Part shown: piece by piece, positions 25,589 through 64,000 of the stretch
Layout of the letters: every line of letters begins with the position of its first letter
Position numbering within the stretch: the first letter of the stretch is position 1
Virus record (IMG/VR): IMGVR_UViG_3300024272_000069
Strand: one strand, 5' to 3'
DNA length: 64,000 nt
From: a virus
Made by a program: the position numbers and the translations under genes
The notes under the pieces: generated by a model
Told to the model about the DNA's origin: nothing
Databases searched by the model: none
The model's input: the letters and a program-made list of their open reading frames with translations, nothing else

Positions 25589-26854
25589 GTGAAGAAACCC
25601 TACTCACTAAATTTTGAAATAAAGACGGCAGTGGATAGAAATTAGGCCGTAATAGATATTCTCGATTCACTCGAAACCGATCCTTCGTAGAAAGAAATAG
25701 AACAAATGACCGACTATATTCTTTTTGGTAAGGATGAAAAGTTTTTGTCGGCCGTCGACACCAAAGACATTTTATAGCCCGAACGCCGTTTCAATTCTTG
25801 GAAAACCAAAGCAGAAAAAACCGAATCTCTTGATGCCCTGCTGGAAGACCCAGTAACAGCCCCCGAGATAGAATCAAAAACCGCCGACCGCGGGCCACGT
25901 TACAAGGTAGTTAAGCCCGAGATTAAGCGTCCCACCTACGATGCTGATGGCAACATGATTGATCCCGGTGACTCCGATGTACCCGGCATGGTGGAGTTAT
26001 GGGAGATTATTGATGACCTCCAGAAACGCTATGATATGTATAGGGGTAAAATTCCTCCGGATGACAACATTAGGGCACATCCAATAAATAGTTATCAGTT
26101 GTATAAGATGGGCCACATGCTAATAGACATTAGACGTCACCAATACTATTTAAAAGACTATTGGAAACCCACAATCAAATTCTTCAACATCCAGCCACCC
26201 GGAAAACCCATACTAGATTTCAATGGCAACACCGGTCTATGGTTGTCGCCCGAAGAATGGTGCGAACGAAAACGCAACCCTAAAGAATTTGACCTTGAAC
26301 AGCCGCCACTACAAGATACACCTACAGATGAGCAAGGCCACATTTATTGGAAAATCAGTGATAACGAAATAGATTATGAAAATCCCGATCACATTTTAGC
26401 AATTTTAGATAACTATTGCTCATTATTAAAACATTCCTATGGCGACCTTCACAGTCCTACTCGCATCATGTGTTGGGACATAGAATGGTTAATTGAAAAC
26501 GCTGGTCTCACCGATTTAGAACATTTCCTTCTTACCCAACGTGTAGCACATAGAAACATATTTAGAATACAAAAAGCCCTATTGGAAGACGACATCGTAA
26601 TGAGCGACGTTCAAATCCGTACCTATACAAGAAATAAAATCCCAAAGAAGCTCGCCCAAACCGCCACCCGCCTACGCCTAGAGTGTCAGATGCGTAATGG
26701 TGAAATAGAAACACTCAAGTGTTCCAAGTGCGGCAAGTCCTATCCAAAAGATCCTTTCTACTTTGCACGTTCTCGCGACAAGCGTACCGGCTACTGTAGT
26801 CAATGTAAGGCTTGTCAGAAAGCAAAACGTGATGCGGCTAAGGAGGCGAAGTAA
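25589..26854 (+). CDS. first late gene: protein with a C-terminal Cys4 zinc ribbon; 3 in-frame TAG codons
   Basis: GTG start with SD AAGGAG 8 nt upstream; in-frame TAGs at ~25643, 25688, 25775 (the track begins at 25955); frame open (except TAG) back to 25331. Confidence 0.5.
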
Positions 26855-26856
26855 TT

Positions 26857-27789
26857 ATGCCTGTATGCGGCAAATGTAAGATAGATAAACCTATTACAGA
26901 ATTTGTACCTACCAAATCACCATTTCATCCCAAGGATCGCTCCTTGATGTGTTTAACTTGTTTGGAGAAATTGGTTGATCCCAAAGACTTAAATTAGGTC
27001 GACAAAATGTGCCAGTGGCTAGACATTCCTTTCTTTGTCAATGAATGGACCCGGATATGGAACGCGGCGAAAGAACGCACATTACACGTATATGTAAAGC
27101 TACTATCAGACAACCCTTCCTACACGTCCCTTGATTGGTCAACCGTAAATGAAAAATGGCAAGATGCAGAAACATGCGGCACCCTAATTGATAATGTGCC
27201 TGTTGTTGCCGAAGGCTGGCGACGCGAAATGATGCGTAAATGGCCATCCGACCAAGAACGTGATGATGAAGACTATCATTATTTAGAAAATTTCTATAAC
27301 GATCTTTGCACCACCCAAAATCTTGTAAGTGCTACCCAACGTGACGATGCCAAACGCTTGTGCGAAGTTGGACTGTTAGCTACCAAAAAAATTCGTGCCG
27401 GTCTTGATGCCAAGAATGAAATGGCAATTTACCACAACATCGTTAAGACCGAAGGTTTTGAACCGAAAAACGCCAAAAATATTGGAGACTTCGACAGCGT
27501 AGGAGAACTCTACACTTGGCTTGAAAAACGTGGCTGGAAACCAAAGTGGCACACCGAGCCGCAAGATAGCGTGGACTTTACTATAAAGAATATACAAAAA
27601 TATCTACAACGTCTTGTTACGGGCGAGGGTGCCCTAGCAGACCAAGTAGAAAATCGCCGTAAGCAACTTGAACTTGCTAACCGTCTTGAGGAAGACTACG
27701 ATACTCCACTTGAAGATGAGGACGTCGAAATCGAGTATGAAGGTGCGGCCGAGCTGGAGGATGAGTTAGATGACGGAGCTCTTAACTAA
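26857..27789 (+). CDS. DNA-packaging-associated protein (possible terminase small subunit): N-terminal zinc ribbon, acidic C-terminal tail, 1 in-frame TAG
   Basis: ATG immediately after the upstream TAA; CGKC...CLTC; TAG at 26995-26997 joins it in frame to track ORF 27007-27789. Confidence 0.45.
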
Positions 27790-29554
27790 CACTACCTCCC
27801 GCCCCATTTAGGGGGAATTAAGAGATGGAGTCCCTATTGAAAAAGGTGTAGTAGTTACTGAAGATTTCCTAGAGAGAAACGAAAATCTTTTTTAGCAATA
27901 TAGTGCCTACTTTATGTTGTATCCAGATTTATTTTTGGATCTGATCGCAACCAAAGATTGTCCAATTAAATTCTACTACTACCAGCGAATTATGTTGCGT
28001 GCGATGATGCGTTTCCGTTATTTTTACGGAACCTTTACTCGTGCGACATCTAAATCGTTCTTAGCAATTATTTCACAGTATCTTGCTTGTATGTTCCTGC
28101 CGCGTTCTAAGCGATTTGTAGTATCTCAATTCAAGAAAGCTTCTCTAAGTATTACGAAGCAGAAGCTCGAAGAAATTTGGACATACTGGCCACTACTGAA
28201 AACAGAAATTCTTACTCAACATATGTCAACAGACTATATTGAGCTTATCTTTAAAAATAGTTCTACCCTACAAATTCTTTCTCTCAGTGCCTCCAGCCGT
28301 GGACAACGTGCTTCTGGCGGTCTGATAGAAGAGGCTGCTCTTATTGATGGTGACCTGTTGGCAGAAGTTATCATTCCTATGATGAACATTCCTCGTCAAC
28401 ATTCTTCTGGCGGTTCGAATCCAGAAGAACCGCACTCTCAGCAGGTGTATATTACATCGGCTGGCAGTAAGAATACTTTCGCCTATGAACGTTTGATAGA
28501 ACTTACAACATTGGCTGTACTTGAACCACAAGATTACTTCATATGCGGTGCAAGTTATGAACTACCGTTGAAATATGGATTATTCGATAAAAAAACAATT
28601 CAAGACCAAAAGCTTAGCTCTACTTTCTCTAGTGATGGTTTCGCTCGTGAGTCTATGAGTATTTGGACAGGTGGTTCAAGTGATTCTTGGTTTAATACAA
28701 ATAAGCTAAATAAGTCTCGTTCTCTAATGCATTGTGAGAGAGATTACAATCTCACTCAGAAGCAAGTAGATGCGGGCTGGTTCTATCTAATGTCTGTCGA
28801 CGTTGCTCGCTATGGTGAGAATGATACTTCTGTATTCGTCTTTAAGGTGCGGCCTAGGGATAACGGCTGGAAAAAGGACGTTGTATATACAGAGAACCTT
28901 ACTAAGATGAATCTTCTCACACAAGCCGCGAGATTAAAAGAACTTAATCGTATTTATCGTCCAAAAGAAATCGTTATCGACGGTAACGGCGTTGGTGCCG
29001 GTTTAATTGACGCGATGGTTGTTCCTTCTTTCGGTAAGAATGGTGAAACCTATGAACCAATATACGTAACTAACGATCCTGATAATTATCCTATTCCACG
29101 CGGTATGGATAGGCTTGCTTCTATTTATAACATTAAAGCCAATGCAACTCTTAACGGTGAAATTTATTCTAATCTCTATGTTCAAATAAACAGTGGTAAT
29201 GTTGGACTATTAGCTGCTGAGCGTATCGTCAAAGAAAAACTACTTGCAACTAAAAAAGGACAACGAATGAATTATTTAGCAAGAGAAAAATTTCTCTTAC
29301 CTTATATCATGACTTCGCGACTTATAGATGAGATGAATAATCTAAAATTAAAAGTTGGTGGAGCTGCCGGAACTGTTGCCGTCGAACAAATTTCTCGACG
29401 TATTAACAAAGACCGTGTATCCGCCCTCTCTTATGGATTATATCGTATCAAATACTATGAAGATAAAGAAGTGCGGAGAAAGCGTACCGGAATAACGGAT
29501 GCCTCAAAGTTAGCTTTCTTTTCTTCTTCTAAAAAATCTAAACGGAGGCATTGA
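27770..29554 (+). CDS. terL: terminase large subunit (TerL), with 2 in-frame TAG codons in the N-terminal extension
   Basis: ATPase motifs (GTFTRATSKS, LIEEAALIDGD) and C-terminal nuclease-like VDVARYGENDTSVFVF; the track start 27914 lacks an SD whereas ATG 27770 has GGAGG 9 nt upstream and is in frame through TAGs at 27809 and 27893. Confidence 0.75.
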
Positions 29555-29559
29555 TAAGC

Positions 29560-31053
29560 ATGGCTGAAGAGACCAACAAAAAAGTTCGTCAACTAACGGA
29601 TTTCGAAAGTTTCGCCAAGAAAGTCGCTTTGAAAGTGCCACAACAATCTACGAGCTATCGTAACAGATTCGGTAGAAGCTATACCTCCATTTCGTCTGAC
29701 GGATTCTCCAAAGAGGAGATCCGCCAGATTTTAGAATCTGGAGATCCTAATAGCATACGTGAATTATCGAAATATTTTAGTAGATTTTGCGGTACCTATT
29801 CTCGACCTTTGCAATACTATGCAACGTTACTTAATTACGGTTATGTAATTGTTCCGCATTATGACATTGATTCAAAACCTAAGAAAATAAAGGCTGCGTA
29901 CAAGAAAATCTCTTAGTATATTAAGAACTTTAATTTTGATTATATTCTTCCTAAGATCAATTATATTGTTCTTACTGAAGGTATATACTATGCTTTGTTA
30001 ATTGAAGATTCTGAAGAACGTCCAGTTTTCTATCGTTTACCGGCAAAGTATTGCCGCACTCGTTTCGCCGATAGTTACGGATTACCAATTCTTGAACTTC
30101 ATACTTCTTATTTTGAGTACATCACTGACTCTGATGTTGAACGAAAAGAAATTTTAAAGCTATTTCCTAAATATGTTCAACAATCCTATAACAGTCGTAA
30201 AGAAAAATTAAAGTGGGTAGAAATTCCTCCCTCCGAGGGCGGTTTCTGTTTCTACTTTACAGAGGATCAAACTCCTCCCTTTGTTTCTTCCACTTTAGCC
30301 GCGGCTGAGTTAGAAAATGCTCGTGATCGCGAAACGGAACGAGATAACAATGAGTTGGAGAAGATTTTAATTCATAAGCTTCCAATTAATAAGGAAGATG
30401 GTGAATTACTTTTTACACTTCCCGAAGCAGAAGTTTTACACCAAAGTATTTGTAATATGCTAGAAGATAACGAGACTATTAATGTATTAACTACTTATGG
30501 TGAAGTTAGCTTAGAGGGTGTACAGGATACCGAAGCTTCTTCTACTGCTTCTTCTACTCGTTTAGAGAAATACCTTAATAGTGTTTATGATGAGTTGGGT
30601 ACTTCTTCCGCAATCTTTAATGCAGATAGTGCTACCACCGCTCTAACTTTCTCTATTAAGAAAGATATTTCTTTAATGTATGCTTGGAGTAAGCAATACG
30701 AATTAGCTGTTAATTCTATTCTTCGTCGCAAGGCAAAGAATGATCAACTTTATTTCTCTATAAAGTTCCTTGCTACATCTTCTATTTTCCGTAAAGAAGA
30801 TGCGGACATGTATCTAAAGATGGCACAGTATGGTTATCCACGTTCTACTGTATCTGCGACAATTGGTCTTGATATGGTTGATTTGGCTCAAGTTACCGAC
30901 TTTGAAAATAATGTACTACATCTTGAAAAATCTATGATTCCTCTACAATCTTCTTATACAACTCCTGGTGGAGAAAATTCTACAGGTTCGGGAAAAATTT
31001 CTGAAAAGAAAACAACTGGTCAAGACCTTACAAATGAAGGCGGAAGGCCATAG
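29560..31053 (+). CDS. portal protein (~497 aa), 1 in-frame TAG
   Basis: Track ORFs 29551-29916 and 29995-31053 share a frame and are separated only by TAG 29914-29916; combined size and position after TerL fit a portal. Confidence 0.6.
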
Positions 31054-31121
31054 AAAAGTGTAGAAGAACGTGCGGACCGAACCAATGCAAATATTGACGG
31101 TTCAACGTAAGGAGTGAAATA

Positions 31122-32543
31122 ATGTCACGAGAGATACCAACTCGTTTTGATGCATCCTTCGTAGAAGGTAGCTTTCATTCCACTGAAGACCCAGAAATAC
31201 AGCTCGGTAGGGTAAGAGCGTTCTATAAGTATTCTAATCGCAATGGCAGTTATATTACCGACGAATATGCGGAAAAGCTTGCTTTATCCGCTTATATGAA
31301 GCCGGTATTTGGCTGTTATAGTCATGAGCACAAAGACTTTTTAGGGCATGAGGGGCCTGAGAATGTCAAGGGTTACGGTTTCGTAATTCCAGGCTCACTT
31401 AAATGGGAAGACCATTTAGATGATGACGGCGTAGTTCGCACTTATGCTACATATGATGTATTGGTTTGGGCAGAATATTGGGAAGAAGCTAAGTATATTT
31501 TCCAAAAAGCTCAAAGCATGGAAATTGACAAAAATACTGTTCAGGGTGAATGGCGCTTTATGAACAATGGCCCCATGGAAGAATTTGTTTATACAAAGGG
31601 TGTTATGGCTGGCTTTTGTGTTTTAGGAGACATGAAGACTCCTTGTTTTGAAGGTGCGGCATTCTTCTCTATGGACGACGAAAGCTATGTGAAATTCACA
31701 AAGGCTCTCGAAAAATACTATTCCAATAATGGAGGTAAGAACGCTATGAACGTAAAGGTAGCGGGACTTGAGCATGAGAAGTTCAATGCAATTTTTGCCG
31801 CTCTAAATCCCAACTTTAATGAAGAAGGCGCTTACTCACTCAATTTTATTCCTTGTGAAATCGCTGACGAGTACTTCTATGCTCTCGCTTGCGACAAGGC
31901 TGGCAAGGTAAATAAGTATTCTTACTCTTTCAATGAGGAGAATGAGCTAACTGTCGAATTAGTTGAGGAAACTGACTATCAAGCGGCAGTTGCTGATTTT
32001 GAGATTGTTAAGGGTCAGCTCGCAACCGTACAGGCCGAGTTCGAAACTTTCAAGACTGAAAATGCTACTGCGCTAAGTGAAGCAGAGGGCCGTTATAATG
32101 AGCTAAATACTCAGTATGAAGCTCTCATGGGTGAGAAGTCTACTCTCGCAACTGAGTTCGAAAATCTTCAGGCTCAGTTTAATGAACTACAGGCTCAGTT
32201 TAATGAGCAACAAATTAGCTTTAATAATCAGGCTGCCGTAATTGCTGAGAAGGATGCTACTATTGCTACTCAGTCTGCGACTATTACTGATTATGAAAAT
32301 AAAGAAAAGGATGCCCTAATTAATAAGTTCTCTACTTGCATGCCTACTGATATTATTCAGGAGATTGTTGAGAAGAAGGACACCCTAACTATTAATGAAT
32401 TAAATACTGCTCTTTCTATTGAGTATACTAATTTCTCAATGGCAAAGGAACAGAAGCAGGAGCTACGTATTCCAAACAATAATCCTCCTTCCGATCCTTC
32501 TAAAGAGAAGCTATTTAATATTTTAAATGCCTACAAGAAGTAA
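31122..32543 (+). CDS. head morphogenesis protein with a long C-terminal coiled-coil (scaffold, possibly fused to a prohead protease-like N-domain)
   Basis: SD AAGGAG; heptad-rich QAEFETFKTENATALSEAEGRYNELNTQYEALMGEKSTLATEFENLQAQFNELQAQFNEQ. Confidence 0.4.
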   Translation: MSREIPTRFDASFVEGSFHSTEDPEIQLGRVRAFYKYSNRNGSYITDEYAEKLALSAYMKPVFGCYSHEHKDFLGHEGPENVKGYGFVIPGSLKWEDHLDDDGVVRTYATYDVLVWAEYWEEAKYIFQKAQSMEIDKNTVQGEWRFMNNGPMEEFVYTKGVMAGFCVLGDMKTPCFEGAAFFSMDDESYVKFTKALEKYYSNNGGKNAMNVKVAGLEHEKFNAIFAALNPNFNEEGAYSLNFIPCEIADEYFYALACDKAGKVNKYSYSFNEENELTVELVEETDYQAAVADFEIVKGQLATVQAEFETFKTENATALSEAEGRYNELNTQYEALMGEKSTLATEFENLQAQFNELQAQFNEQQISFNNQAAVIAEKDATIATQSATITDYENKEKDALINKFSTCMPTDIIQEIVEKKDTLTINELNTALSIEYTNFSMAKEQKQELRIPNNNPPSDPSKEKLFNILNAYKK

Positions 32544-32562
32544 ATTACGGAGGTAATTGTTT

Positions 32563-33108
32563 ATGGCTCGTTTTATGATTGACAAGTACGGCGTTCTCGA
32601 AATGAACCGTGCTGAATATTTAAAGACAGGCATGATCGTCTCCCAGACTCCACTAAGTGAGGAATTCACTGAGGCCGCTCCTTGCGAGAACGGTATGTGG
32701 GTAGATGCCAATAAGGCTAATGACGCGATCAAGCTAATTTCTGACGAAACCGAAATCTACGGTATCGTTTATACTACTGAGAAGGATTACACTGGTCTAC
32801 GTCCAGCCCTAAAGTGGTTCCATCAGGTTGCTGGCGACTATCCACGTGTAGGTATTCTAAATAAGGGCGACACCTTTACTACCAACACCTTCCATTATGA
32901 TTTCGCAAGTGAAACTGTTGCTGAACAGTGGGCAGAGCTAAAGAAAGCTTTCAAAGCTGGTGCCCTATATGTTGTTCCAACCGTTGACGATGGTGCTCCA
33001 ACTGTAACTGCTGAGAAGCCAGCTGAGGGTCCATATGCTGAAGTCGTTAAGCTCTATACTGTTCCTGCTGGAACCCCTGGTATTAAGTACGTAATGGTAC
33101 GCGTCTAA
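32563..33108 (+). CDS. head-associated protein (181 aa; decoration or minor capsid candidate)
   Basis: SD ACGGAGG; lies between the scaffold and capsid genes. Confidence 0.35.
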   Translation: MARFMIDKYGVLEMNRAEYLKTGMIVSQTPLSEEFTEAAPCENGMWVDANKANDAIKLISDETEIYGIVYTTEKDYTGLRPALKWFHQVAGDYPRVGILNKGDTFTTNTFHYDFASETVAEQWAELKKAFKAGALYVVPTVDDGAPTVTAEKPAEGPYAEVVKLYTVPAGTPGIKYVMVRV

Positions 33109-33124
33109 TTTGGAGGTAAATATT

Positions 33125-34156
33125 ATGGATATGACATTACAACAGCTACATGACTGTGCGATGGGTCGTAATATTCCAGCCGAGTTCGCTAACCAGAACG
33201 TTGATTACGAATCCGCCCTTCGCGATGAAATTAAGAAACTCGTAGGTACCTATTCCCTCTATCGCAAGAATAAGTACGAGTTATTTGATCTACTCCAGCA
33301 GAATGCTGAAGAGATTCTCCCACGCAAGGTTCTTGACCTAATTGGTTCTTTTGCTGAGGTTGCTCAGTATGGTAATAATGATCGTCTAAGCTTCAAGGTA
33401 AAGCGTGGCGCACAGCGCGGCAAGCAGTTCGTTACCCGTGCTACTGAGTCCGGTGTCTACGAGACCTTCCGTCTCGATTACGACTACATGGAACTCACCA
33501 GCCACACCATCGGAGGCGCTGGTATCATTGATTTCGAGCGCTACCTCGATGGTCTTGAGGACATCGCTGAGATCTATGATATTATCCTTGATGGTATGAT
33601 GACCGCTATCTTCCGTGACATTCAGGGCTGTCTAGCTGCTTCTTGGAATGATACTGGCCGTCCAGCCAAGAATAAGGCTTCTGCTAATACTTTCGACTGG
33701 CAGAAGATGAGTCAGCTCGTTCAGGTTGTAAGTGCATATGGCGCTCCAGTTATCTACTGCTCCGCTCTATTCGCTGCTACCATGCTAAATGTTGTTGCTA
33801 CTCCAGATGGTTGCAAGGTTTCTGATAAGGAAATCGACGAGATTCGTGAGTATGGCTACATTGGTAAGTTTGCTGGTGCTCCAGTTGTCGTTATGCCAAA
33901 TTCCTTCGAGGATGAGACTAACGAGAAGCTAGTATTCGACCCACGTTTTGCTTATGTAATTCCAGCTGGCAAGGAGAAGATCGTTAAGGTTGCTCTAGTT
34001 GGCCAGACCATCATCGACGAGTGGAAGAACACCGATCGTTCCCTCGAGATTCAGGGTTACAAGAAGCTCGGCGTCGGCATTGTTGCCGCACCACACTATT
34101 GGGGAATCTATTACAACTCCGGCATTGATGCTTGGGGTCATCCAGAAATCGCCTAA
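33125..34156 (+). CDS. major capsid protein candidate (344 aa)
   Basis: Size, position after the scaffold, strong SD GGAGG 8 nt before ATG 33125, high-expression codon usage. Confidence 0.5.
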   Translation: MDMTLQQLHDCAMGRNIPAEFANQNVDYESALRDEIKKLVGTYSLYRKNKYELFDLLQQNAEEILPRKVLDLIGSFAEVAQYGNNDRLSFKVKRGAQRGKQFVTRATESGVYETFRLDYDYMELTSHTIGGAGIIDFERYLDGLEDIAEIYDIILDGMMTAIFRDIQGCLAASWNDTGRPAKNKASANTFDWQKMSQLVQVVSAYGAPVIYCSALFAATMLNVVATPDGCKVSDKEIDEIREYGYIGKFAGAPVVVMPNSFEDETNEKLVFDPRFAYVIPAGKEKIVKVALVGQTIIDEWKNTDRSLEIQGYKKLGVGIVAAPHYWGIYYNSGIDAWGHPEIA

Positions 34157-34223
34157 TTTACTATTAATATAAATTTCGGGGAGGGCCTCCGCCCTCCCCT
34201 CGGAGTTAAAAGGAGTAATTATT

Positions 34224-34673
34224 ATGAGTAAGATGAAAATTAAAAACGTCAGCAACTTTGCTATTAGTATCATTCTTAATAACGTTCGTTATCGCCGAGA
34301 TCTAAATCCTGGTCAGGAGACTTCTCTTCCAGAAGATGTAGTTGAGGAATTTAATTTTGATCCCGGCTGCCGCTCTTATGTAAAGTCCGGTTATATCAAG
34401 GTTATTACTGAAGACCAGGAAATTAAGGATGTCTTTGGAGACACTCCAAAGGATGTAGATATTGATATTGCGGACCTTCTAACTAATAAGTCTGTAAATG
34501 AACTTGCAATTGCTCTAAAGAATGGCTCTCCTGCTTTTAAGGAAAAAGTTGTTTCTGAAGCAATTCGTCTATCTATTACTGATGCTGCTCGTTGTTCTTT
34601 AATCAAGCACAATTGCAATGTAGATGTACTAAATGCTATTACTCTACAGCGCTCTGTTGAAACCAACCGATAA
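34224..34673 (+). CDS. head-tail connector/completion protein candidate (149 aa)
   Basis: ORF track; SD AAAGGAG. Confidence 0.3.
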   Translation: MSKMKIKNVSNFAISIILNNVRYRRDLNPGQETSLPEDVVEEFNFDPGCRSYVKSGYIKVITEDQEIKDVFGDTPKDVDIDIADLLTNKSVNELAIALKNGSPAFKEKVVSEAIRLSITDAARCSLIKHNCNVDVLNAITLQRSVETNR

Positions 34674-34687
34674 GGAGGTGCGGCCTC

Positions 34688-35131
34688 ATGGCTACTCCTT
34701 TACAAAAAGTTTACGATGCCTTTCTGGCTAAACTTGAAGAAGACGAGTGGATGCTAGCAGAGGACGTGAACGTCGTAGAAGATGATTGGAGATAGATTTT
34801 GGACGCGGCAATTTTCCGCGTTCGCTATCCACATGTGTCGTTAGACTACGATGCTGAAACTGGCATTTTTATCGACACTCTTGGTAATGATGAAATTCAA
34901 TTACTTGCAAATCTTATGAAGTCTGAATGGATTAATCGTACTATTGCAGTATGGGATAATTTAAGACAATTATATAGTGATAAAGATTTCTCTCAAGCTA
35001 ATTTCCTTGACAAGCTTAATAAAACAGGAGCGCAGGTTGATGATACTTGTCGCCTAATGTTAGATAGGTACGGCCGTGCTGTACGTTATAAACCTAACAA
35101 AATCTTCGGCAAGTTAGCCGGAAAGGGTTAA
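34688..35131 (+). CDS. head-tail joining protein candidate (147 aa), 1 in-frame TAG
   Basis: SD AAGGAGG; TAG at 34793-34795 precedes track ORF 34799 in the same frame. Confidence 0.4.
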
Positions 35132-35138
35132 GTTTGGT

Positions 35139-35949: not shown

Positions 35950-35973
35950 AATTCAGTTCCTGGTGTAATTTTT

Positions 35974-56000: not shown

Positions 56001-58596
56001 ACTTAGCGTAGCTAACACTCCTGATAATATTGGTTTTTATGAACTTGGTCAACTTGTTTTTATCAACGACTATCTTATGGGCGTTTCCGCCGCGACTGGT
56101 TACATTAGTGGAATTACCTATAAATTAAGCAATCCACAAGATGACGAGATTGAAATTAAAAACTATAAAACAAAGTTTGAGGATCTTTTTAGTACCATTA
56201 CTGCTTCCAGCGAAGCAATGAGAAATAATCAAGTTGCTTACAATATTGCAGCGGGAAGCTTTAATGCTGATGGTACAATTGAAGGTTCGGTTCTACAAAA
56301 CTCTATTCTTAACAACAATATTGCAATGAATTATTCTAATACTAATGTTGCAATAGATGATGTTAATGGTATTATTCTTACCAATCAACAGCCTTATCTA
56401 AATGGTGTTTATGGCCAGGTTAAACTGATGGGCGGCGGCATATTCCTATCAAATGCTATTGATGGATCAGGTGCTCGTATTTGGAACACTGGTATTACTC
56501 CTAATGGTATTAATGCCGCGATGATTACTGCTGGTCAATTAGATGTAAATAAGATTCGTGTCTTTGCTGGCGATAATGTTGCATTTCAATGGAATAGTGA
56601 AGGTATTTTTGCTTATAAGCAAAATGAAGAAACTGGTTCTGTTGACTTAAATACCTACGTAAGATATTCTGATAGAGGTTTATAGTTTGTAAGTGGAGAG
56701 CATACTGCAGTAGATTTGGGTTGGAATGGTTTACTTATTTCTACTCAAGATGGTGCTACTCAATTAACCGGTGAGTATGGTTTAACAATTTATGATGGAG
56801 AACCAGAAAATGATGAAGAAACTGGTCTTCCACTTAATCCAGTTGTGCGTATTGGTAAGTTTGAAGAAGAAGGTTAGCCTATTGACTATGGTATGCGGCT
56901 TTATAAACAAGATCCAGAAACAAATGAATACCATGAAACGCTTATTACTTCTAATAAAGGATAGCTTTGGTTAAAAGATTACATCATTGTTGGTATTGAA
57001 GAAACTGATGATGCTGGTAATATTAATATTGCTGGGACTTCTGGAGTAACTGATGGCTTAGCAGGTGCCATACTTGATGGTGGAGATGCCAATGAAGATC
57101 CAACTGTTGATAATGTAGTGGTTTATGGTGGAGATTTTGCTGGTATTTCTGGCGAAGTTGAAGCAACAGCTGGTAAGTCCGTAAGATTTTGGGCTGGCGA
57201 TAGTTTTTCCAACCGTAGAATTGCGCCTTTTCAAGTTTGGTAGGATGGTACATTAATTGCTGATCGTGGTATTATTAGAGGTACTATTTATGCAAAAGAC
57301 GGTGAATTTTCAGGTGCTATCAATGCTGAAAGTGGTAGTATTGGTGGCTGGATAATTAATAAGGATACTGACGAAGAAACTTCTATTGAAATTGATTATT
57401 TAATGAGTGAAGATGGTAAGACCAAATTATTTGGTAATGGCGATATTCGTATTCAAGTAGGAGATAATTTTTCAATTACCGAAGATGGAAAAATTACTGC
57501 AAAATCTGGACAAATTGGTTCTTTAACTATTAGTGATATTGATGCTTTAGGTGGAGATATTACTACAAATTCTGCAATATTATCAGTTGAAGGTTTAACC
57601 ACGGTAAAACGAGGAGAAGCTGTTGATGCCAATTTTGTTGTTTCTTGTTATCGAGGAAATATTTTATTTACAGATATAGAATATTTGGATTACGATGTTT
57701 TACTATGGTAGTATAATGATGGTTCTGGTTGGAAAGATTTGTATAATACACAAATTACTTTAAATCTAAATAGAACTTATGATTATAACGAAGAATTATC
57801 ATAGTCAACTTATATACGTTGTATTTTTAAAAATGATAATGAAGAAATCATTAGTAATGAGTTATTATTAACTGCGATTACTGAAGATGAATCAAATGCC
57901 GTAATTTTTTCGATTATTACTCCAAATGGCAATATCTTAAATAGCTCTAATACTGAAGTTATTTTAATTGCTTCTTTAGTTGAAAATGGTGTTACAATAA
58001 ATGAAAATATAGAATATATTTGGGAAAAATATGATATTGAAAATAAAGAATATATTGAATTAAGTAATGAAAAAACCGATTCTTTAAGTGTAACTATAAA
58101 AGATATAGATAGTTATGGTTCATATAGATGTAAAGCTATCTATAATGATAATATATATTTAGCATATGGTTCTGTTCAAGATAGTACTGATCCGTTACAG
58201 TGTTATCTATATAGTACAATAGGTGATTAGATTTTAAATGGCGAAGGAATAGGGGCGGTTTATGCTCGTTCTTATCGAGGTAATTTAGAAGTGGGTCCTA
58301 TAAAAACGACTATTTTTACTACTTCATTAGACGAATCTTTAGAAAGTGCTTATGTTTATATTCTCGATAATGAAAATAAAACCTATAATCTTTATTTTAA
58401 TAATGATGGCGTTTGGGAATTAGCAGAGGATGATACGAGTGTAATTTATACTTATTCTTTTAGAGATAAATACGGAAATGCTACTACTTATAAAGGATAG
58501 AATTATTATATCGGACGAGTATTATATATTGATAGCGAACTTATTGAAGGTAAAATTATTATAGATGTTACTGCTGAAGAAGCTGTCATAACTTAA
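53092..58596 (+). CDS. tail-associated lysin/baseplate-fiber (Tal-position) protein, ~1834 aa, many TAG codons
   Basis: TTG start 6 nt after SD GGAGGG; track fragments 53344, 53593, 54628, 55036, 55939, 57403 and 58291 all in frame 1; TAA at 58594. Confidence 0.55.
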
Positions 58597-58613
58597 TAAG
58601 GAGGTTATACATT

Positions 58614-61586
58614 ATGGCCAAAGCTTTTAGTTCTATAACTATTACTGAAGTTAATGATGGTCAAAATGGTACAACCTTAGTTTGGAAGGGTTCCTATGCC
58701 TCAGTTGCAGATTTAATTGAGGCATAGGGATCTCCAAAAAATGGTTGGGCTTATTATGATATAGGATTAAAGGGCTCTTATATCTATCAAGATGGTTCTT
58801 GGTTTTTACTTAGTCAAGATGGTTTAGATGGAGATGGAGCAAATTAGATAGTTGATATCCGCTATAGTGATAATTTAAATGATAAACATTTTACAACCAA
58901 TGATAATGGTGAGGAAGATGGCCTCACTTTAGGAAAATATATTGGTTTTCGACTTGTTGAAAAAAAGCCTACAACTGAAGAGCTATAGGGAACTTTTGAT
59001 GATTATTCATGGAGTTCATTAGAAACAACTGTTGATTTTAATTTATCTTTTTATATAAAAACTAGTGCGCAAATAATTAATCATCAAGTCGATAAAAATA
59101 ACGTTTATGCTTGTACACCGGATGAAATAAAAATTGAGTTTTATGCCGAAGCAAATGCAGAGCGTATAGTCTTAAATAAAGATTTATATTGTTTTGATAT
59201 AAATTTTTATTATGAAGATGGTTCAATAGATAATAAATATATTAAAGAAGATTTAAGTGAAAGTACATTTGAATTATCTTTATCTAATATTAATCAAAAA
59301 ATTAATTAGATTGATATTATTTTATATGAAAAAAGGGAAAATATTGGTATAAATGAAGACGGACAAGAACAAGTAAGTATAATCCACAAAATTTAGGCAT
59401 CTTCAACTATTATTGGTATTTATGAAATGACAAAAGAATTAGCTATTTTTTAGGTGAATGCTGATTCAATTGTCTAGTCAATTGGTGAAACAAAATTAAC
59501 GTTTAGCGATAAAGGATTAACCGTTGCTAACGGTGCTTTAACAATTTTAGACAAAAATTCTGTACCAGTTTTTTATACTGTTGATGGCGATTTAGTTTTA
59601 AAAGGCACTATTTATGCTGAAAATGGTGAATTTGGTGGTTGGGTTATTAAAAAAGAATAGTTCTCTTCAAGCAATAACAAAACTATTTTTTATAGTGGAG
59701 CCGGTATGAATTATCATGGGTCTTCAGCTAGAATATTAACAGGTTTACGCGAAACTCAGGCTCTCGTTGAAGACGATGAAGAATTAAATTATTCTTTTAT
59801 TGTTACTGATAATGGTTATCTTTATTGCGCAGATGCTAATATTACCGGTGATATACATGCTATAAATGGTTCTATTTTAAATTTCTTTAAAATTGGAACA
59901 GAAGATAGTTTCCGAGGTATCACAATTTATGGTGGTAATAATGAGAACGATAGCTATATAGGTTCAAATAATTTTAGTTCTGGTACATTTGGCTATGGTT
60001 GGAATATTAGTGGTGGCGGTACAGCGGAATTTACTGATATTCGTGCAAGAGGAAAAATATCAAGTTCAGTTTTTGAATATCAAAAAACAAGTTCTATTGG
60101 TGGTAACTTATATATTACTCCTACTATTTATTTCGAACAAGCTTCTAGTCCGATTAAAACAGAGAATGGAAAATTTGTAGTTACTTTAACTCATTCCTCT
60201 TCTGATATTAAAGGTATTAGTGGCCGTGCTTGGAAAGAAAAAGATGAAATTCGTTTAGAAGGTATTGCTGTTTTAGAGTCTAATAAAAATTAGGTTATAT
60301 TAAACAATGTTGTAGGTTATATTTAGAAAATTGAAGTTATTAATAATGAAACAAATATTGAAGTTGTTTTTGAAAATGAAAAATCATTAAATGACTATAT
60401 TTTAATCGAAGGTACTCTTTTAATGTTTTATGGTGCTTGGGATGAAGCTACTTAGAAAATACAACAAAGTGGTATTTATTTAACAGCTTCTGAAGAAGCT
60501 TCTCCTTATATTGATGTTTATGATATTAGTACAGATGGAAAAGTTAAATATAGTCCTGCGGTACGATTAGGAAATCTTTCTGGAGTTCGCAATGATATTT
60601 TTGGTACGGAAACTGGATATTTAGAAGGTTTTGGTTTATATAGTTCTAATGCTTATTTAACCGGTGAATTAATTTTACCAAATGCTGGAATTACCAATCA
60701 ATAGAAGGTTGGTTATGATGGTTTAGAAAATTATACTTCTATAAACGAAGATAGTTCGAACGCTATAAGAATATGGGCTGGCGCGGAAAAACCTAAATCA
60801 GATAGTGAAATAATAGCACCTTTTATTGTTACTTAGGATGGTTCTTTATATGCTAAAAAAGGAGTCTTTTAGGGCACTGTTATAGCAGAAAACGGTTATT
60901 TTAATGGAGTTATATAGGCCGCGGGAATCATTTTAGATAAAAACACAGATTATACCTCTCCTGAAATAGGAAAAGATCACTTTTTTGTTGGTTATTCTCA
61001 AAATCCTGTTTCTTTTGATGATTATGTTTTAAATATAGGTAAAGATGGAATATCTATTTGGGAAGGTGCTCTTCGTGCTTTTAGTGATTTTGCAAGTATA
61101 AGTACAAATGAAAAATATACCCATAAAATTTATGGTTATGATAATACTTAGAAATATACTCCTCTTCCCTATTTTTTCTTAGTAGATGCTGTTCACAATA
61201 TTACGTCAGAGGGTTTATCACTTGATAATAGAGTAGTAAATTATAAAAATCATATTTTTTAGTTAGATGAAAAGTATCAATGGTCTTCGGTTCTTTTAGA
61301 TAATGGTATTTGGTTTTCTAGCGGTACAAATGAAGATTTTATTCTACAAAATAATTTAGATACATTAGAGAAAAAAGCTTATGAATCTCATGGAAAAATT
61401 GGTATTTATGAAAAAGAAAATAAACTTAATATAAGAAGTGAAGAAATAATTCTTGAAAATGAAGATATATATTTTAATGGTTATTTACACTTAAATAATA
61501 ATAGTTCTAATGATATTTCAATTAGTATCGGTAATATGCTAATTCAAGAAGTCGATAGTACTATTGAAGGAATCAATTTTATATAA
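58614..61586 (+). CDS. tail fiber/receptor-binding protein candidate (~990 aa), many TAG codons
   Basis: SD AAGGAGG; frame open except TAG to TAA 61584; Gly-rich GG/NG repeats. Confidence 0.5.
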
Positions 61587-61599
61587 AGGAGAAAAAAGG

Positions 61600-64000
61600 A
61601 TGAGTTATAGTGTTGGCGCGATTTATAGCGCAGATGGAATAGCTTTAAGTGGAAAGCCTGGTACCAGTTCCAATTATGCCACAGCCTATTATGGTGGTTA
61701 TGACGGAACTTGGCCTTCTAGTAGTAATTGGTCTGGATATAAAATTAATTCGGTATCAGTTGGTTTTGAGATAGAAAATTATATGTCTTCAACAACAGCT
61801 TATATTTCATTAGAATTAAATGGAAGAACTTTAGTTGATTCATATCCTATTAGCGCAGGTACTAGAGTTGATGTTACTTAGTCAGGACCCACTTCAGGTT
61901 ATTTAATATAGGCTTTATTAAATGGCAATTCTATTTCAATTACCGGCGATCGTAATACTTCTACTGGTAGTGGAACTTTTTTACAATTTAAATCAGATAT
62001 TTCTGTTTCGATTAATTATGAGTTACCTAAAACATATACGGCTTGTTCTGCTCCTACATCAGTTACAGCTAGTTCAGAAAATGTAATGCCTGGTGGAACT
62101 TTTACTCTTAGTTGGAGTGGTGCATCTGGTGGTACTAATACTTCAATTTCAAAATATGATATTTACCGCAGTACTTCAAGTGATAGCGGCTATACCAAGG
62201 TTTAGACAGAATCAAGTTCTCCAGCTCCTGTTACAATTCCAGATTCAAATGGAACTACTTATTATTATAAAGTCTAGGCTATTTGCTCTGATACAGACTA
62301 TAATAGTAGTTTGTCAACTAATTATGCCACAGTAAAAGCTACTGCCACTTCTCCAACTATTTCTACTTTTACTATTGCTGGTCAATCTTCTAATGTTTAT
62401 ATTGGAGGATCTACTTAGTAGGTAACTATTAAATGGAGTGGAACAGGAGGAACAAATAATAGTATTGTAGGGTATATATTAGTAGATGCAACTACTGGAA
62501 CAGAGTAGTCATTTAGTTCAGCTGAAACATCATATACAACTACAGTTACAGTAACTGCCGGCCATACTTATTATGGTAAAATTAAAGGTTCTTATAGTAA
62601 TAGTGATAGTTCTAATCAAATTACTGTAGAAGCTTTAGCCTTAGATACTAATATTACGATTACTTCAAATCCTACTACTGGTAAAATTACCTAGCGTAAT
62701 ATTAATTTGTCTTGGAGCACTCCAACAATTACAACAGGAAAAATTTCTGGTAATATCACTTATACAATTAGCTATATTAGTGACGCATTAACAGGTGATT
62801 TAGTTTCAAAAATTACGACTACTAATACTACAGTAACATTACCAACAACAATACAATCTGGTGTAAGCACTATTTTATGGTTGACTATTTCAGCAACTGC
62901 AAGAGATGGAGGAAGTAATACTTGGACGGTAACTATTGGAGAATATACATTAACAGGTTTACCTAATGCACCAACAATTACTAAATTGTATGATACAAAA
63001 GGACCAAGTTCTATGTTAAATGGAATTTAGTCTATTGGTTATAAATATATTAAAATTCATTTTTCTCCTGCTACGCAAAATAGTGCCAATGGTTCTGGAA
63101 GTAATTTTACTTATAAACTTCGTTATTGGAAAAATAATGAACCATATAAAACTGAAAATCTTTCTGTAAGTGGTACTGCTACTGAAATCGTTTTAGACCG
63201 TGATCTTGAAAGTGATTATGATTTATCCTCTAATTCTACAATTAACTTTTAGATAGAGGCTACAGACGAATATGGCACACCAGCACTTTCAAATAATGTT
63301 TCTATAAAACGTTTTTCTTTGCCAACAATTACTTGGAATAATTGTTCTATTACTCAAATAAATGCTTCAAATTTTTCAGTGCCTATTGGTAATAAAATAA
63401 CCGGTGCTTTTTCTGGAATCATTCCTGCAGCGAGTGGTTCAACAAAAGTTATTTATTCTTTGAAAGTAAGTTATAATAATTTTATTGCAGAACACTTAAA
63501 TTCAATAAATGGCTCTTTTTCTAATACGAATTCTAATACTTTTACAACTACGGTTACTTGTCCAACTTCTTTAGATGTAAGTAATAATTTTTAGACTGCT
63601 TTATTCCAGGAAGTATTAAATAATAATAATCCAAAACCATCTGGAACATTAATTTTAACTTATTATTATGAAGGTTTTTCTACTTATACCGCAACAAGTT
63701 TGTACTCTTTCAATTTTAATTTTATACGAACTTTAGGAGCGTTATCTTCTGAAAACTATTTAGTCCATTATTCCAATAATCGAACTTATTTTAATCCTTT
63801 TGAAACAATAACAATTACTTGTAAGGATTTGATAGATTGGACTGGAGCTTCTGGAGAAAGAACTTATCCTGGAGCTACTATAACTAAAACAATTAAAAGA
63901 AATAATAATAACTTATCAATTAATAGTGATAATCAAATCAATGATAGCTATGATTTATATACTGCATCAGAAGTGACTTTAAACTATTATTTAACTTATA
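61600..64000 (+). CDS. tail fiber protein with tandem Ser/Thr-rich Ig/FN3-like repeats (partial; continues past the window), many TAG codons
   Basis: SD AAGGAG; track fragments 61564, 62707 and 63319 in frame 1; repeated ~90-aa T/S-rich modules (SWSGASGGTNTSISKYDIYRS... / IKWSGTGGTNNSIVGY...). Confidence 0.5.

What the first reader, a model, noticed from the sequence alone, without database searches (positions are those of the whole stretch)
25589..64000. TAG (amber) is a sense codon throughout the late gene module
No gene in the window terminates with TAG; every stop I checked is TAA or TGA. From 25.6 kb rightward the real genes are visible only if TAG is read through. All 14 ORF-track fragments of 39.6-51.2 kb lie in one frame and are separated only by TAG. 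The same holds for Dit (3 TAG), the Tal-position gene, both fiber genes, the portal (TAG 29914), TerL (TAGs 27809 and 27893 upstream of the track start, which otherwise lacks an SD), gene 36803-37573 (5 TAG; no track ORF at all) and the first late gene at 25589. Sequence context (AIE-TAG-QMASLQSAIVAQ, DL-TAG-K-TAG-IDAIE in coiled-coil regions) is compatible with Gln, as in other TAG-recoded phages. TGA and TAA remain stops.
Basis: partly seen in the sequence, partly recalled or inferred. Interest (0 to 1): 0.9.

Follow-up and report, generated by a model that had tools for sequence, protein, structure and literature searches.

The report
Phage late genes read TAG as glutamine
This is part of a large (about 174 kb) SPbeta-like phage from gut-type metagenomes whose tail, packaging and some DNA-processing genes use the amber stop codon TAG as a sense codon, most likely glutamine; this is a real feature, but a kind of phage recoding ("genetic code 15") that is already well described.

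Summary
On the + strand from 25.6 kb to the window end, 20 tightly packed genes appear only if TAG is read through. They hold 133 in-frame TAGs in 12,686 codons and no internal TAA or TGA. One 4,022-codon tape-measure gene carries 64 of them. Profile matches to terminase, portal and tail proteins run straight across the TAGs. Thirty of 80 related contigs have the same genes uninterrupted in the standard code. Residues aligned to TAG fit glutamine best. The 35 early genes (5.7-25.1 kb) have no in-frame TAG and end in TAA or TGA.

- Seven late genes (major capsid, scaffold-like, tube and others) are TAG-free and prefer CAG.
- Recoding continues beyond the late module into RuvC, glycosyltransferase and GIY-YIG genes just right of the window.
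- One early gene (4052-4438, minus strand) may really end in TAG.

I found no canonical tRNA(CUA) in the window or in about 137 kb of the roughly 174 kb genome. Several relatives carry one with a Gln-like acceptor stem.

This is a new member of a known kind: code-15 phages such as the Agate clade, phAss-1, crAss-like and Lak phages. ENA gene calls already translate it this way. Interest is modest.

The parts
25589..26854 (+). First late gene (421 aa from the GTG at 25589, with an AAGGAG SD). It has 3 in-frame TAGs (25643, 25688, 25775). The C-terminus is sigma-factor-like with a zinc-ribbon/HNH-like region.
   Evidence: phrog_5767 at aa 256-412. Relatives align across the first two TAG positions. 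ENA called a shorter 382-aa version from the ATG at 25706.
26857..27789 (+). YonG_N-family gene, 310 aa, 1 TAG.
   Evidence: phrog_3314 at aa 4-268, spanning the TAG at aa 47. Pfam YonG_N on the ENA call.
27770..29554 (+). Large terminase, 594 aa, with TAGs at 27809 and 27893. It ends in TGA.
   Evidence: phrog_15503, phrog_2 and phrog_24618; the match spans 27893. ENA's TAG-sense call is also 594 aa. Codon counts.
29560..31110 (+). Portal protein, 516 aa, with TAGs at 29914 and 31051.
   Evidence: phrog_2739, E = 9e-69, aa 16-514. tblastn to SPbeta-like, EF1-like and phAss-1 portals covers up to 99% of the protein.
31122..34673 (+). Four TAG-free head genes: YonD_N scaffold-like (31122-32543), 32563-33108, YonB-type major capsid (33125-34156) and 34224-34673. 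They prefer CAG over CAA and have higher GC3.
   Evidence: Pfam YonD_N and YonB. The MCP has 1 TAG in 15,365 codons across 45 recoded relatives.
34688..36327 (+). Head-tail connector region: 34688-35131 (1 TAG), 35139-35399 (0 TAG), 35386-36327 (1 TAG).
36328..36816 (+). YomW-family virion protein, 162 aa, 0 TAG. It ends in TGA.
36803..37573 (+). YomV-family gene, 256 aa, 5 in-frame TAGs. It is invisible in the standard code.
   Evidence: phrog_4051, E = 7e-34, aa 9-253. The TAG at aa 129 aligns to CAA or CAG in 18 of the 23 tabulated codons from standard-code relatives, and to TAG in 24 recoded ones.
37588..38493 (+). Tail tube protein (YomU_Tube), 301 aa, 0 TAG.
38567..39382 (+). Tube paralog (phrog_2729), 271 aa, 3 TAGs.
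   Evidence: (aa 6-262).
39442..51510 (+). Tape-measure protein, 4,022 aa, 64 in-frame TAGs and no internal TAA or TGA.
   Evidence: The ENA call is 4,022 aa with Pfam PhageMin_Tail. It aligns across TAG sites to uninterrupted ORFs in standard-code relatives.
51517..53073 (+). Dit-position gene, 518 aa, 3 TAGs. The name rests on position only; there was no family match.
53092..58596 (+). Tal-position tail protein, 1,834 aa, 20 TAGs.
   Evidence: (phrog_3267 'tail protein' at aa 1570-1821).
58614..61586 (+). Tail fibre-like gene, 990 aa, 17 TAGs.
   Evidence: There was no family match.
61600..64000 (+). Repeat-rich fibre or adhesin gene, cut by the window end. It is 1,111 aa with 19 TAGs in the full locus, 11 of them inside the window.
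5726..25081 (.). Early module. It holds about 35 genes, 30 on the minus strand (7918-25081) and 5 on the plus strand (5726-10938). They have no in-frame TAG, stops of TAA or TGA, and GC3 of 0.52. They are compatible with both codes.
13451..13801 (-). Phage tRNA-Lys(UUU) (13451-13526) and tRNA-Leu(CAA) (13719-13801). These are the only canonical tRNAs in the window, and neither is a suppressor.
13373..13447 (-). Degenerate tRNA-like element directly after tRNA-Lys. It has an acceptor stem with 6 of 7 pairs, a good T arm, and the hairpin GCCCU[GCCUAA]GGGGC with CUA in a 6-nt loop. It is an unproven candidate only.
   Evidence: ARAGORN at -ps90 calls it Leu(aag); z = -2.07. It is not reported as a tRNA by Rfam.
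3617..4438 (-). HTH/sigma70-region-4 gene (4052-4438). It ends in TAG and is followed in frame by ORF 3617-4036. It is either the one real TAG stop in the window or a read-through fusion of 273 aa.
   Evidence: The only homolog found aligns to aa 16-127, ending at the TAG.

Best explanation
The window is about 37% of a roughly 174 kb SPbeta-like siphovirus genome that uses two decoding regimes.

**Early genes.** They sit mostly on the minus strand at 5.7-25.1 kb, each behind a sigma-70-type promoter. They contain no TAG at all and are GC3-rich. The unmodified host can therefore translate them under the standard code.

**Packaging, tail and some DNA-processing genes.** They contain TAG at about 12 per 1,000 codons and can yield full-length protein only when TAG is decoded efficiently as an amino acid, most probably glutamine.

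**Shown here:**
- TAG is in frame in conserved genes.
- Homology crosses the TAGs.
- TAA and TGA are the stops.
- Gln is the best-fitting residue.
- About half of the relatives are recoded in the same way and the rest use the standard code.
- The major capsid, scaffold-like and tube genes stay TAG-free.

**Inferred from established knowledge of code-15 phages** (bioRxiv 10.1101/2021.08.26.457843; Peters 2022, PMC9523058; Babkin 2023, PMC10607447). A phage-encoded tRNA(CUA), charged with Gln by the host system, accumulates during infection and out-competes release factor 1. Translation of TAG-containing late genes is thereby delayed until the code switch. The suppressor of this particular phage was not located. 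It probably lies in the roughly 36 kb I could not read.

**My own inference.** The most abundantly made virion proteins avoid TAG because suppression is less efficient than ordinary decoding.
For: - ORF structure and codon counts.
- Profile matches spanning TAGs.
- Independent assemblies: the identical MCP is on 17 contigs up to 174 kb, and ENA gene calls already use TAG-sense translation, including the 4,022-aa tape-measure protein.
- Comparative set: 45 recoded, 30 standard-code and 5 ambiguous relatives among 80 IMG/VR loci.
- Residue identity: likelihood favours Gln. At the sites conserved in standard-code relatives, TAG aligns to CAA or CAG: YomV-family gene aa 129, and tape-measure aa 505 and aa 751. 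In the closest relative, TAG aligns to CAA or CAG in 19 of 50 reverse cases.
- Suppressor tRNA(CUA) genes in six relatives, near the RNA ligase. The same anticodon arm is on the contig of the recoded locus L081. Acceptor and discriminator match tRNA-Gln(UUG) genes of related contigs.
- TAG avoidance in capsid genes: P(0 TAG by chance) = 1e-9 in the window. The MCP has 1 TAG in 15,365 codons across 45 recoded relatives, against 12.9 per 1,000 elsewhere.
- Published precedent.
Against: - No canonical tRNA(CUA) and no release-factor gene were found in the window. None was found in about 137 kb of the genome or of close relatives.
- The amino acid is inferred, not measured. Among distant standard-code relatives, Glu is the most frequent aligned residue (120 versus 91 for Gln), and 7 of 25 such loci individually favour Glu.
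- The isotype of the relatives' suppressors could not be fixed by overall sequence similarity.
- The timing model has no expression data behind it. RuvC, glycosyltransferase and GIY-YIG genes are also recoded, so 'late structural genes only' is too simple.
- The host is unknown.
Confidence: 0.85

Rival explanations
1. TAG is a sense codon but stands for an amino acid other than Gln. Candidates are Glu, Lys, Tyr, Ser, Leu or Trp, each one mutation from TAG, or pyrrolysine.
For: In standard-code relatives, Glu is the single most frequent residue aligned to the window's TAGs (120 versus 91 for Gln). Three TAG sites sit on conserved Glu and one on conserved Arg. Seven of 25 standard-code loci individually favour Glu. 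Many phage tRNA(CUA) genes in relatives are about 90 nt with a long extra arm, unlike ordinary tRNA-Gln.
Against: Once normalised by each residue's own substitution pattern, Gln wins clearly. The margin is 65 lnL units with the closest relative and 74 with all standard-code relatives, and 42 of 44 recoded loci pick Gln. Gln shows the highest enrichment over background, 3.2-fold (His is about equal at 3.15-fold). TAG/CAA/CAG exchanges dominate between close relatives. Adding TAG to the Gln count brings low-Gln tail genes to ordinary Gln content. No pyl genes appeared in any gene table. Published code-15 phages show Gln by mass spectrometry (PMC9523058).
Confidence: 0.07
2. There is no dedicated canonical suppressor. 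TAG is decoded by a non-canonical phage RNA or by near-cognate host tRNAs after RF1 is inactivated. The candidate phage RNAs are the degenerate tRNA-like element at 13373-13447(-) and the insertion-bearing tRNA-like genes left of the window.
For: No canonical tRNA(CUA) was found in about 137 kb of about 174 kb. A tRNA-like element with CUA in a 6-nt hairpin loop follows tRNA-Lys in the early region. Three tRNA-like genes with 9-50 nt insertions lie beside an RNA ligase and a YqeY-domain gene. Published surveys find suppressors in only 40% of TAG-recoded phages and suspect non-canonical tRNAs.
Against: About 36 kb of the genome is unread, and relatives place ordinary tRNA(CUA) genes in just that neighbourhood. 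The element at 13373-13447 lacks U33, a 7-nt loop, a proper D arm and a CCA end. Rfam does not score it as a tRNA, and its fold z-score is only -2.07. Its homologs could not be found for a covariation test. Sixty-four TAGs in one essential gene demand near-complete suppression, which near-cognate reading does not give.
Confidence: 0.1
3. The in-frame TAGs are not decoded. The late genes would be pseudogenes, assembly or sequencing artefacts, or true short genes separated by TAG stops.
For: Standard-code gene callers (JGI) do split the region into dozens of short ORFs.
Against: Only TAG interrupts the frames. There are 133 TAGs and 0 TAA or TGA. The probability of a 4,040-codon frame free of TAA and TGA is about 1e-106. 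The fragments lack their own start signals, whereas whole genes have GGAGG ribosome-binding sites. Family matches are full length across TAGs. The same sequence recurs in 13-24 independent contigs from different samples. TAG sites are shared with 45 related recoded loci.
Confidence: 0.01

Closest known systems
phAss-1 / proposed 'Phassvirus' group of human-gut phages (Babkin et al. 2023, PMC10607447; GenBank OQ749652, filed by NCBI under 'Caudoviricetes code 15 clade')
   Same: It is a large siphovirus-type genome (136 kb). TAG is read as Gln in TerL, portal, a very long tape-measure protein (3,149 aa) and fibre genes. Only part of the ORFs are recoded (28%). Divergent relatives are a mix of recoded and standard code, and some recoded relatives have no detectable tRNA-Sup. 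Its portal is detectably homologous to the window's (28% identity).
   Different: The relationship is only distant, with no nucleotide similarity. phAss-1 has 36 tRNAs including three tRNA-Sup(CTA) in one array. Here tRNAs are few and scattered and no tRNA(CUA) was found. This genome is larger (about 174 kb) and has a 4,022-aa tape-measure protein.
TAG-recoded 'Agate' clade and other code-15 phages of animal and human guts (Borges et al., bioRxiv 10.1101/2021.08.26.457843)
   Same: Closely related genomes use different codes. The alternative code sits in structural modules and is variable in DNA-replication genes. The early genes are compatible with the standard code. Suppressor tRNAs are detected in only 40% of TAG-recoded genomes.
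   Different: Membership of Agate was not tested, because no terminase tree was built. RF2 was seen in two TAG-recoded Agate phages but in none of the gene tables here. The systematic TAG avoidance by the major capsid gene is not mentioned in that text ('capsid' has no occurrence).
crAss-like and Lak phages with code 15, validated by metaproteomics (Peters et al. 2022, PMC9523058)
   Same: The reassignment is the same (TAG to Gln). The proposed logic of a mid-infection code switch affecting late genes is also the same.
   Different: They are unrelated lineages with presumed Bacteroidota hosts. The strong GGAGG ribosome-binding sites and SPbeta-type proteins here point to a Firmicutes-type host (inference). 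There are no proteomic data for this phage.
Bacillus phage SPbeta and SPbeta-like phages (Yon/Yom/Yor protein families)
   Same: Pfam families defined on SPbeta proteins hit the virion and replication genes: YonB capsid, YonD_N, YonG_N, YomW, YomV, YomU tube, YorF and YorH. Portals are homologous. The genome is large, the tape-measure protein is very long, and DnaE-type polymerase, NrdD and gyrase genes are present.
   Different: SPbeta and its cultured relatives use the standard code. Sequence identity is low (25-28% for the portal).

Membership tests
Code-15 (TAG to Gln) recoded phages | Conserved essential genes are interrupted only by in-frame TAG and are restored to full length when TAG is read through. 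| tested here: met
   There are 133 in-frame TAGs and 0 internal TAA or TGA in 20 late genes. PHROG matches to portal, TerL, phrog_4051 and phrog_2729 are full length and span the TAGs.
Code-15 (TAG to Gln) recoded phages | TAG positions align with glutamine in standard-code homologs. | tested here: met
   Gln is the maximum-likelihood residue. Its margin is 65 lnL units against the closest relative and 74 against the 30 standard-code loci. Of 44 recoded loci, 42 pick Gln. The conserved sites YomV-family aa 129 and tape-measure aa 505 and aa 751 are CAA or CAG. The evidence is statistical, not biochemical.
Code-15 (TAG to Gln) recoded phages | TAG is no longer used as a terminator, and TAA and TGA terminate genes. 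| tested here: met
   All complete late genes end in TAA (16) or TGA (3). In the left part, 41 of 43 complete called ORFs end in TAA or TGA. The exceptions are 13864-14052(-), which is doubtful, and 4052-4438(-), which is unresolved.
Code-15 (TAG to Gln) recoded phages | A phage-encoded suppressor tRNA with anticodon CUA is present. This is usual but not universal. | tested here: inconclusive
   None was found in the window or in about 137 kb of the genome or close relatives. About 36 kb is unread. Six relatives have one.
Code-15 (TAG to Gln) recoded phages | A block of genes compatible with the host's standard code (early genes). | tested here: met
   There are 0 TAG in 4,522 early codons, against 133 in 12,686 late codons.
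Code-15 (TAG to Gln) recoded phages | Gln is found at TAG positions in peptides. | not testable with these tools
   This needs virion or metaproteome mass spectrometry.
SPbeta-like phages | Virion and replication proteins belong to the SPbeta Yon/Yom/Yor families. | tested here: met
   Precomputed Pfam hits are YonB, YonD_N, YonG_N, YomW, YomV_2nd and YomU_Tube, and YorF and Phage_SPbeta_YorH in close relatives. The portal tblastn hits SPbeta-like phages.
Agate clade (Borges et al.) | Placement inside the Agate clade on the large-terminase tree. | not tested
Proposed genus Phassvirus | Nucleotide identity and synteny with phAss-1 (members share 80-86% nucleotide identity). | tested here: not met
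   There is no megablast match to any INPHARED record. The portal is only 28% identical.

The most novel reading that the evidence does not exclude
This lineage decodes TAG without an ordinary tRNA(CUA). It would rely on a structurally aberrant phage RNA, with the neighbouring RNA ligase and YqeY-domain genes helping to make or charge it. Candidates are the D-arm-poor tRNA-like element at 13373-13447(-), which carries CUA in a 6-nt loop, and the insertion-bearing tRNA-like genes left of the window. A related possibility is that the early HTH/sigma-like gene at 4052-4438(-) uses its TAG as a timer: it would terminate early in infection and be read through into a 273-aa fusion once suppression sets in.
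Probability: 0.08. Interest if true: 0.7.

Novelty: new member of a known kind. Interest (0 to 1): 0.3.

Why it matters
**Practical value.** Standard-code annotation shatters more than 40 kb of this genome into meaningless fragments. JGI calls do so, whereas ENA calls already use the TAG-sense table. The region has to be translated with table 15 to be interpreted.

**Scientific value.** The case adds a large SPbeta-like lineage to the list of amber-recoded phages. Its YonB-type capsid has 863 homologs. Of 80 IMG/VR relatives, 45 are recoded and 30 use the standard code, which gives a good natural series for studying how recoding arises.

Two patterns may be useful to the field:
1. The major capsid, scaffold-like and tube genes are kept free of TAG across the recoded clade and use CAG. 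This suggests that suppression has a translational cost that limits where TAG can spread.
2. The genome holds three codon-usage regimes: early genes at GC3 0.52, TAG-free virion genes at 0.38, and TAG-containing late genes at 0.21.

None of this changes the established picture of code-15 phages.

Tried and rejected
1. **Nucleotide search of the late region against 50,697 phage records.** No match.
2. **Searches for the same phage in IMG/VR and in the metagenome collection.** These used a single-protein portal scan, exact MCP DNA, and a 148-aa protein in metagenome contigs. I found nothing usable, so the whole contig could not be fetched.
3. **Walking along the genome by exact-protein look-ups**.
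   - I reached window -37.5 kb to +80 kb in this species, and to about +100 kb in close relatives.
   - About 36 kb remains unread.
4. **Custom scan for 5-bp-stem / NUCUANN loops followed by a T-loop motif in all held sequence of this phage.** It returned only chance hits inside genes.
5. **Approximate matching to the relatives' suppressor acceptor stem.** It turned up only the degenerate element at 13373-13447.
6. **Homologs of that element and of the adjacent tRNA-Lys in IMG/VR, for a covariation test.** No exact matches.
7. **Isotype assignment of the relatives' tRNA(CUA) by global similarity to other tRNAs.** Inconclusive, since the best isotype varied.
8. **Host identification through prophage copies in 185,579 species genomes.** There were only 10 hits, in metagenome bins of mixed taxa. 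The best was Acutalibacteraceae at 52%, and the others included Muribaculaceae and Methanobrevibacter. These look like mis-binned phage contigs, so the host is unresolved.
9. **TGA or TAA as the recoded codon.** Rejected. Reading through TGA or TAA does not create the long ORFs.
10. **Whether the 4052-4438 and 3617-4036 ORFs form one gene.** The only homolog found covers just the N-terminal part, so this is unresolved.

Full report
**1. What the sequence shows**

The window is 38% G+C.

With the standard code, the + strand right of 25 kb holds only short ORFs. If TAG alone is read through, the longest ORF jumps from 552 to 4,040 codons. The + strand total in ORFs of at least 100 codons rises from 13,608 to 21,482 codons. 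Reading through TGA or TAA instead gives no ORF longer than about 560 codons.

From 25,331 to the window end, the TAG-sense ORFs abut or overlap by a few bases. Nearly all are preceded by a GGAGG-type ribosome-binding site at the proposed start.

I count 20 genes with 133 in-frame TAGs in 12,686 codons and no internal TAA or TGA. Sixteen complete genes end in TAA and three in TGA.

The largest gene, 39442-51510, encodes 4,022 residues and contains 64 TAGs. From its base composition, the chance of a frame that long being free of TAA and TGA is about 1e-106.

- TerL TAGs at 27809 and 27893.
- Portal TAG at 29914.
- Five TAGs in 36803-37573.
- Three TAGs in the Dit-position gene.
- The two quoted peptide contexts, at 40561 and 40582.

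**2. The rejoined proteins are real**

I translated the genes with X at TAG and scanned them against PHROGs. The matches cross the TAGs:
- The portal matches phrog_2739 over residues 16-514 (E = 9e-69), across both TAGs.
- TerL matches terminase families across the TAG at 27893.
- Gene 36803-37573 matches phrog_4051 over residues 9-253, across all five TAGs.
- The tube paralog matches phrog_2729 across three TAGs.

The TAG-free major capsid protein (33125-34156) has 863 homologs in the protein collection. An identical copy sits on 17 contigs of up to 174 kb from several JGI and ENA samples. This rules out a one-off assembly artefact.

For the same DNA, the JGI gene calls are fragmented. The ENA calls already use a TAG-sense table and list a 594-aa TerL, a 516-aa portal and a 4,022-aa tape-measure protein.

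Pfam families on the neighbours are those built on Bacillus phage SPbeta: YonB, YonD_N, YonG_N, YomW, YomV and YomU_Tube, and later YorF and YorH. The portal is 25-28% identical to those of SPbeta-like Staphylococcus, Bacillus and Enterococcus phages and of the gut phage phAss-1.

**3. Comparative test**

An alignment of capsid homologs retrieved 130 related loci from IMG/VR, of which 80 were kept. By the gain in ORF length when TAG is read through, 45 are recoded like the window, 30 use the standard code and 5 are ambiguous.

In the standard-code relatives, the tape-measure and other late genes are uninterrupted and align across the window's TAG positions. The TAGs are therefore neither gene boundaries nor frameshifts.

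**4. Which amino acid**

Raw counts of residues aligned to TAG in standard-code relatives are E 120, Q 91 and K 61. Most of these relatives are distant, and many TAGs lie at variable sites.

I scored each of the 20 residues by its own substitution pattern in the same alignments:

| Comparison | Best residue (lnL) | Runner-up (lnL) |
|---|---|---|
| Closest relative | Q (-232.5) | H (-297.4) |
| All standard-code loci | Q (-1923.5) | E (-1997.3) |

Of 44 recoded loci, 42 choose Q when both directions are used.

Between the window and its closest relative, a TAG in one genome most often faces TAG, CAA or CAG in the other. At sites conserved in standard-code relatives, the codon is CAA or CAG: YomV-family gene residue 129, and tape-measure residues 505 and 751.

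Counting TAG as Gln raises the low Gln content of the tail genes (1.0-2.2%) to ordinary values of 2.4-3.5%.

I put the probability of Gln at about 0.9. Only mass spectrometry can settle it.

**5. Where TAG is and is not used**

*Early module.* About 35 genes lie mostly on the minus strand between 5.7 and 25.1 kb. They have no in-frame TAG in 4,522 codons (Fisher p = 4e-18 against the late genes) and stop with TAA or TGA.

*TAG-free late genes.* Seven late genes also lack TAG: the YonD-like gene, 32563-33108, the major capsid gene, 34224-34673, 35139-35399, the YomW gene and the tube gene. Given the rate in the other late genes, the chance of this is 1e-9.

*Codon usage.* Three regimes are visible:

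| Gene set | CAG | CAA | GC3 |
|---|---|---|---|
| Early genes | 104 | 20 | 0.52 |
| TAG-free late genes | 41 | 14 | 0.38 |
| TAG-containing late genes | 48 | 289 | 0.21 |

*Clade-wide pattern.* In 45 recoded relatives, the capsid gene holds 1 TAG in 15,365 codons, against 12.9 per 1,000 in the other long + strand ORFs.

*Beyond the late module.* Recoding is not limited to structural genes. Just right of the window, minus-strand genes carry in-frame TAGs: a glycosyltransferase (7 TAGs), a RuvC-type resolvase (6 TAGs in 170 codons) and a GIY-YIG protein (1 TAG). The neighbouring dUTPase has none.

*Possible TAG stops.* Two standard-code ORF calls in the left part end in TAG.
- ORF 13864-14052(-) overlaps the promoter of tRNA-Leu and is probably not a gene.
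- ORF 4052-4438(-) is an HTH/sigma70-region-4 protein. It is followed in frame, after 15 bases and without a good ribosome-binding site, by ORF 3617-4036.
- The only homolog found aligns to residues 16-127 and stops at the TAG. This may be a true TAG stop that becomes a read-through fusion once suppression starts. It is unresolved.

**6. The decoding machinery**

The window has two tRNA genes, Lys(UUU) and Leu(CAA), and no suppressor.

I extended the sequence by exact-protein look-ups. This reached 37.5 kb left and 16 kb right of the window in this species, and a further 20 kb on the right in close relatives. That makes about 137 kb of a genome of about 174 kb.

No canonical tRNA(CUA) and no release-factor gene turned up. 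About 36 kb stayed out of reach.

Left of the window is an RNA-repair-like neighbourhood with an RNA ligase, metallophosphatase, DUF2828, NADAR and a YqeY-domain protein. It also holds tRNA-Glu(CUC), tRNA-Ile(UAU) and three tRNA-like genes with 9-50 nt insertions.

In relatives, the same neighbourhood carries ordinary tRNA arrays, and six of 80 loci have a tRNA(CUA). Its anticodon arm, CGGTCTCTAAAACCGTA, occurs in 31 IMG/VR stretches, one on the contig of a recoded capsid locus.

Two of these suppressors share the acceptor stem and G73-CCA end of tRNA-Gln(UUG) genes from related contigs. Overall similarity did not fix the isotype.

Directly after tRNA-Lys in the window there is a degenerate tRNA-like element (13373-13447, minus strand):
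- Its acceptor stem has 6 of 7 pairs and it has a good T arm.
- It has a hairpin whose 6-nt loop reads GCCUAA.
- It lacks U33, a normal D arm and a CCA end.
- Rfam does not score it as a tRNA, its fold z-score is -2.07, and I found no homologs for a covariation test.

I list it as a candidate only.

**7. Mechanism**

The best-supported reading is the published code-switch model.
1. Early genes are written so that the host can translate them under the standard code.
2. A suppressor tRNA reading UAG as Gln then accumulates.
3. Only then can the TAG-containing genes be completed. With 64 TAGs in one essential gene, suppression has to be close to complete.

The in-frame TAGs, the homology across them, the Gln assignment, the early/late contrast and the TAG-free capsid genes are shown here. 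The suppressor, its charging and the timing are inferred from relatives and from the literature. That literature reports suppressors in only 40% of TAG-recoded phage genomes.

**8. Comparison and novelty**

TAG-to-Gln recoding in phages is well established:
- crAss-like and Lak phages, with proteomic proof (PMC9523058).
- The gemstone clades, including the 154 +/- 27 kb Agate phages with mixed codes (bioRxiv 10.1101/2021.08.26.457843).
- The phAss-1 group, which is distantly related to this phage and shows the same pattern in TerL, portal, a 3,149-aa tape-measure protein and fibres (PMC10607447).
- NCBI taxonomy even has a 'Caudoviricetes code 15 clade'.

This window is therefore a new member of a known kind.

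The incremental points are:
- The size of the SPbeta-like lineage, with roughly half of the sampled relatives recoded.
- The clade-wide exclusion of TAG from the major capsid gene.
- The three codon-usage regimes.
- The lack, so far, of a canonical suppressor.

**9. Verdict**

My confidence that TAG is a sense codon here is above 0.98. For Gln it is about 0.9, and for the full code-switch model about 0.85. Interest is 0.3.

Noticed in passing
window 6952-23210 (24 copies; for example 10215-10233 and 18238-18256): A perfect 19-bp palindrome, TTAGATGTTSAACATCTAA, occurs 24 times where 0 are expected by chance. On the minus strand, most copies in the minus-strand early region (about 8.6-23.2 kb) sit about 10 bp upstream of a TTGACA-N17-TATAxT promoter of an early gene. 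It looks like an operator for a regulator of the whole early regulon. The same palindrome occurs on 140-166 kb IMG/VR contigs. From memory, it resembles the repeated intergenic elements described for SPbeta.
   Followed up: partly
window 6437-6690: About 250 bp made almost only of A and T, with overlapping repeats spaced 10-22 bp apart (AAATAAAAT-type). It lies between gene 5726-6292 and the first palindrome/promoter units. It may be a replication origin or a DNA-bending region.
   Followed up: no
window 4717-5403: Three copies of a 45-nt repeat containing the inverted repeat CAGTTG...CAACTG (4717-4761, 4999-5043, 5359-5403). They lie in a 1.1-kb stretch with no convincing gene.
   Followed up: no
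window 611-3261 (minus strand) and further left (L113 3198-9713): Fibre-like or structural-looking genes (484, 175, 138 and 56 aa, then a 2,171-aa coiled-coil protein outside the window). They lie on the opposite strand from the late module and contain no TAG, although their codon usage is AT3-rich like the recoded genes (GC3 0.26).
   Followed up: partly
L119 7330-7464, 7468-7583 and 11051-11145 (same phage, about 24-28 kb left of the window); relatives L142 16380-16495, L131 14566-14681, L133 15331-15447, L017 2710-2802: A recurring family of tRNA-like genes. They have normal acceptor, D and T arms but 9-55 nt insertions in or next to the anticodon arm, often a hairpin capped by a GNRA tetraloop. 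They lie beside an RNA ligase, a DUF2828 protein, a metallophosphatase, NADAR and a YqeY-domain protein. They may be Y-RNA-like or RNA-repair substrates rather than decoding tRNAs.
   Followed up: partly
L207-L237 (IMG/VR stretches): Most phage tRNA(CUA) genes sharing the anticodon arm CGGTCTCTAAAACCGTA are about 90 nt long. They have a conserved extra-arm hairpin (CCCTCTGAAGGAG-like), and 15 of 23 distinct sequences begin with U. This is an unusual architecture for a presumed tRNA-Gln suppressor.
   Followed up: no
window 13451-13801 and L119 6875-8804: Of the phage's own canonical tRNAs, Lys(UUU) and Ile(UAU) read the A-ending codons AAA and AUA. AAA is favoured in the TAG-containing late genes (AAA 514 versus AAG 187) but not in the TAG-free capsid genes (AAA 27 versus AAG 91). 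AUA usage was not counted. The AAA pattern fits a late switch to phage-supplied tRNAs.
   Followed up: partly
and 58 cluster listings (P0147, P0162, P0177, P0209, P0236, P0267): Near-identical proteins of this phage also occur on a 361,041-bp contig, about twice the genome length. It could be a concatemer assembly or a prophage inside a host contig. If it is a prophage, it would identify the host.
   Followed up: no
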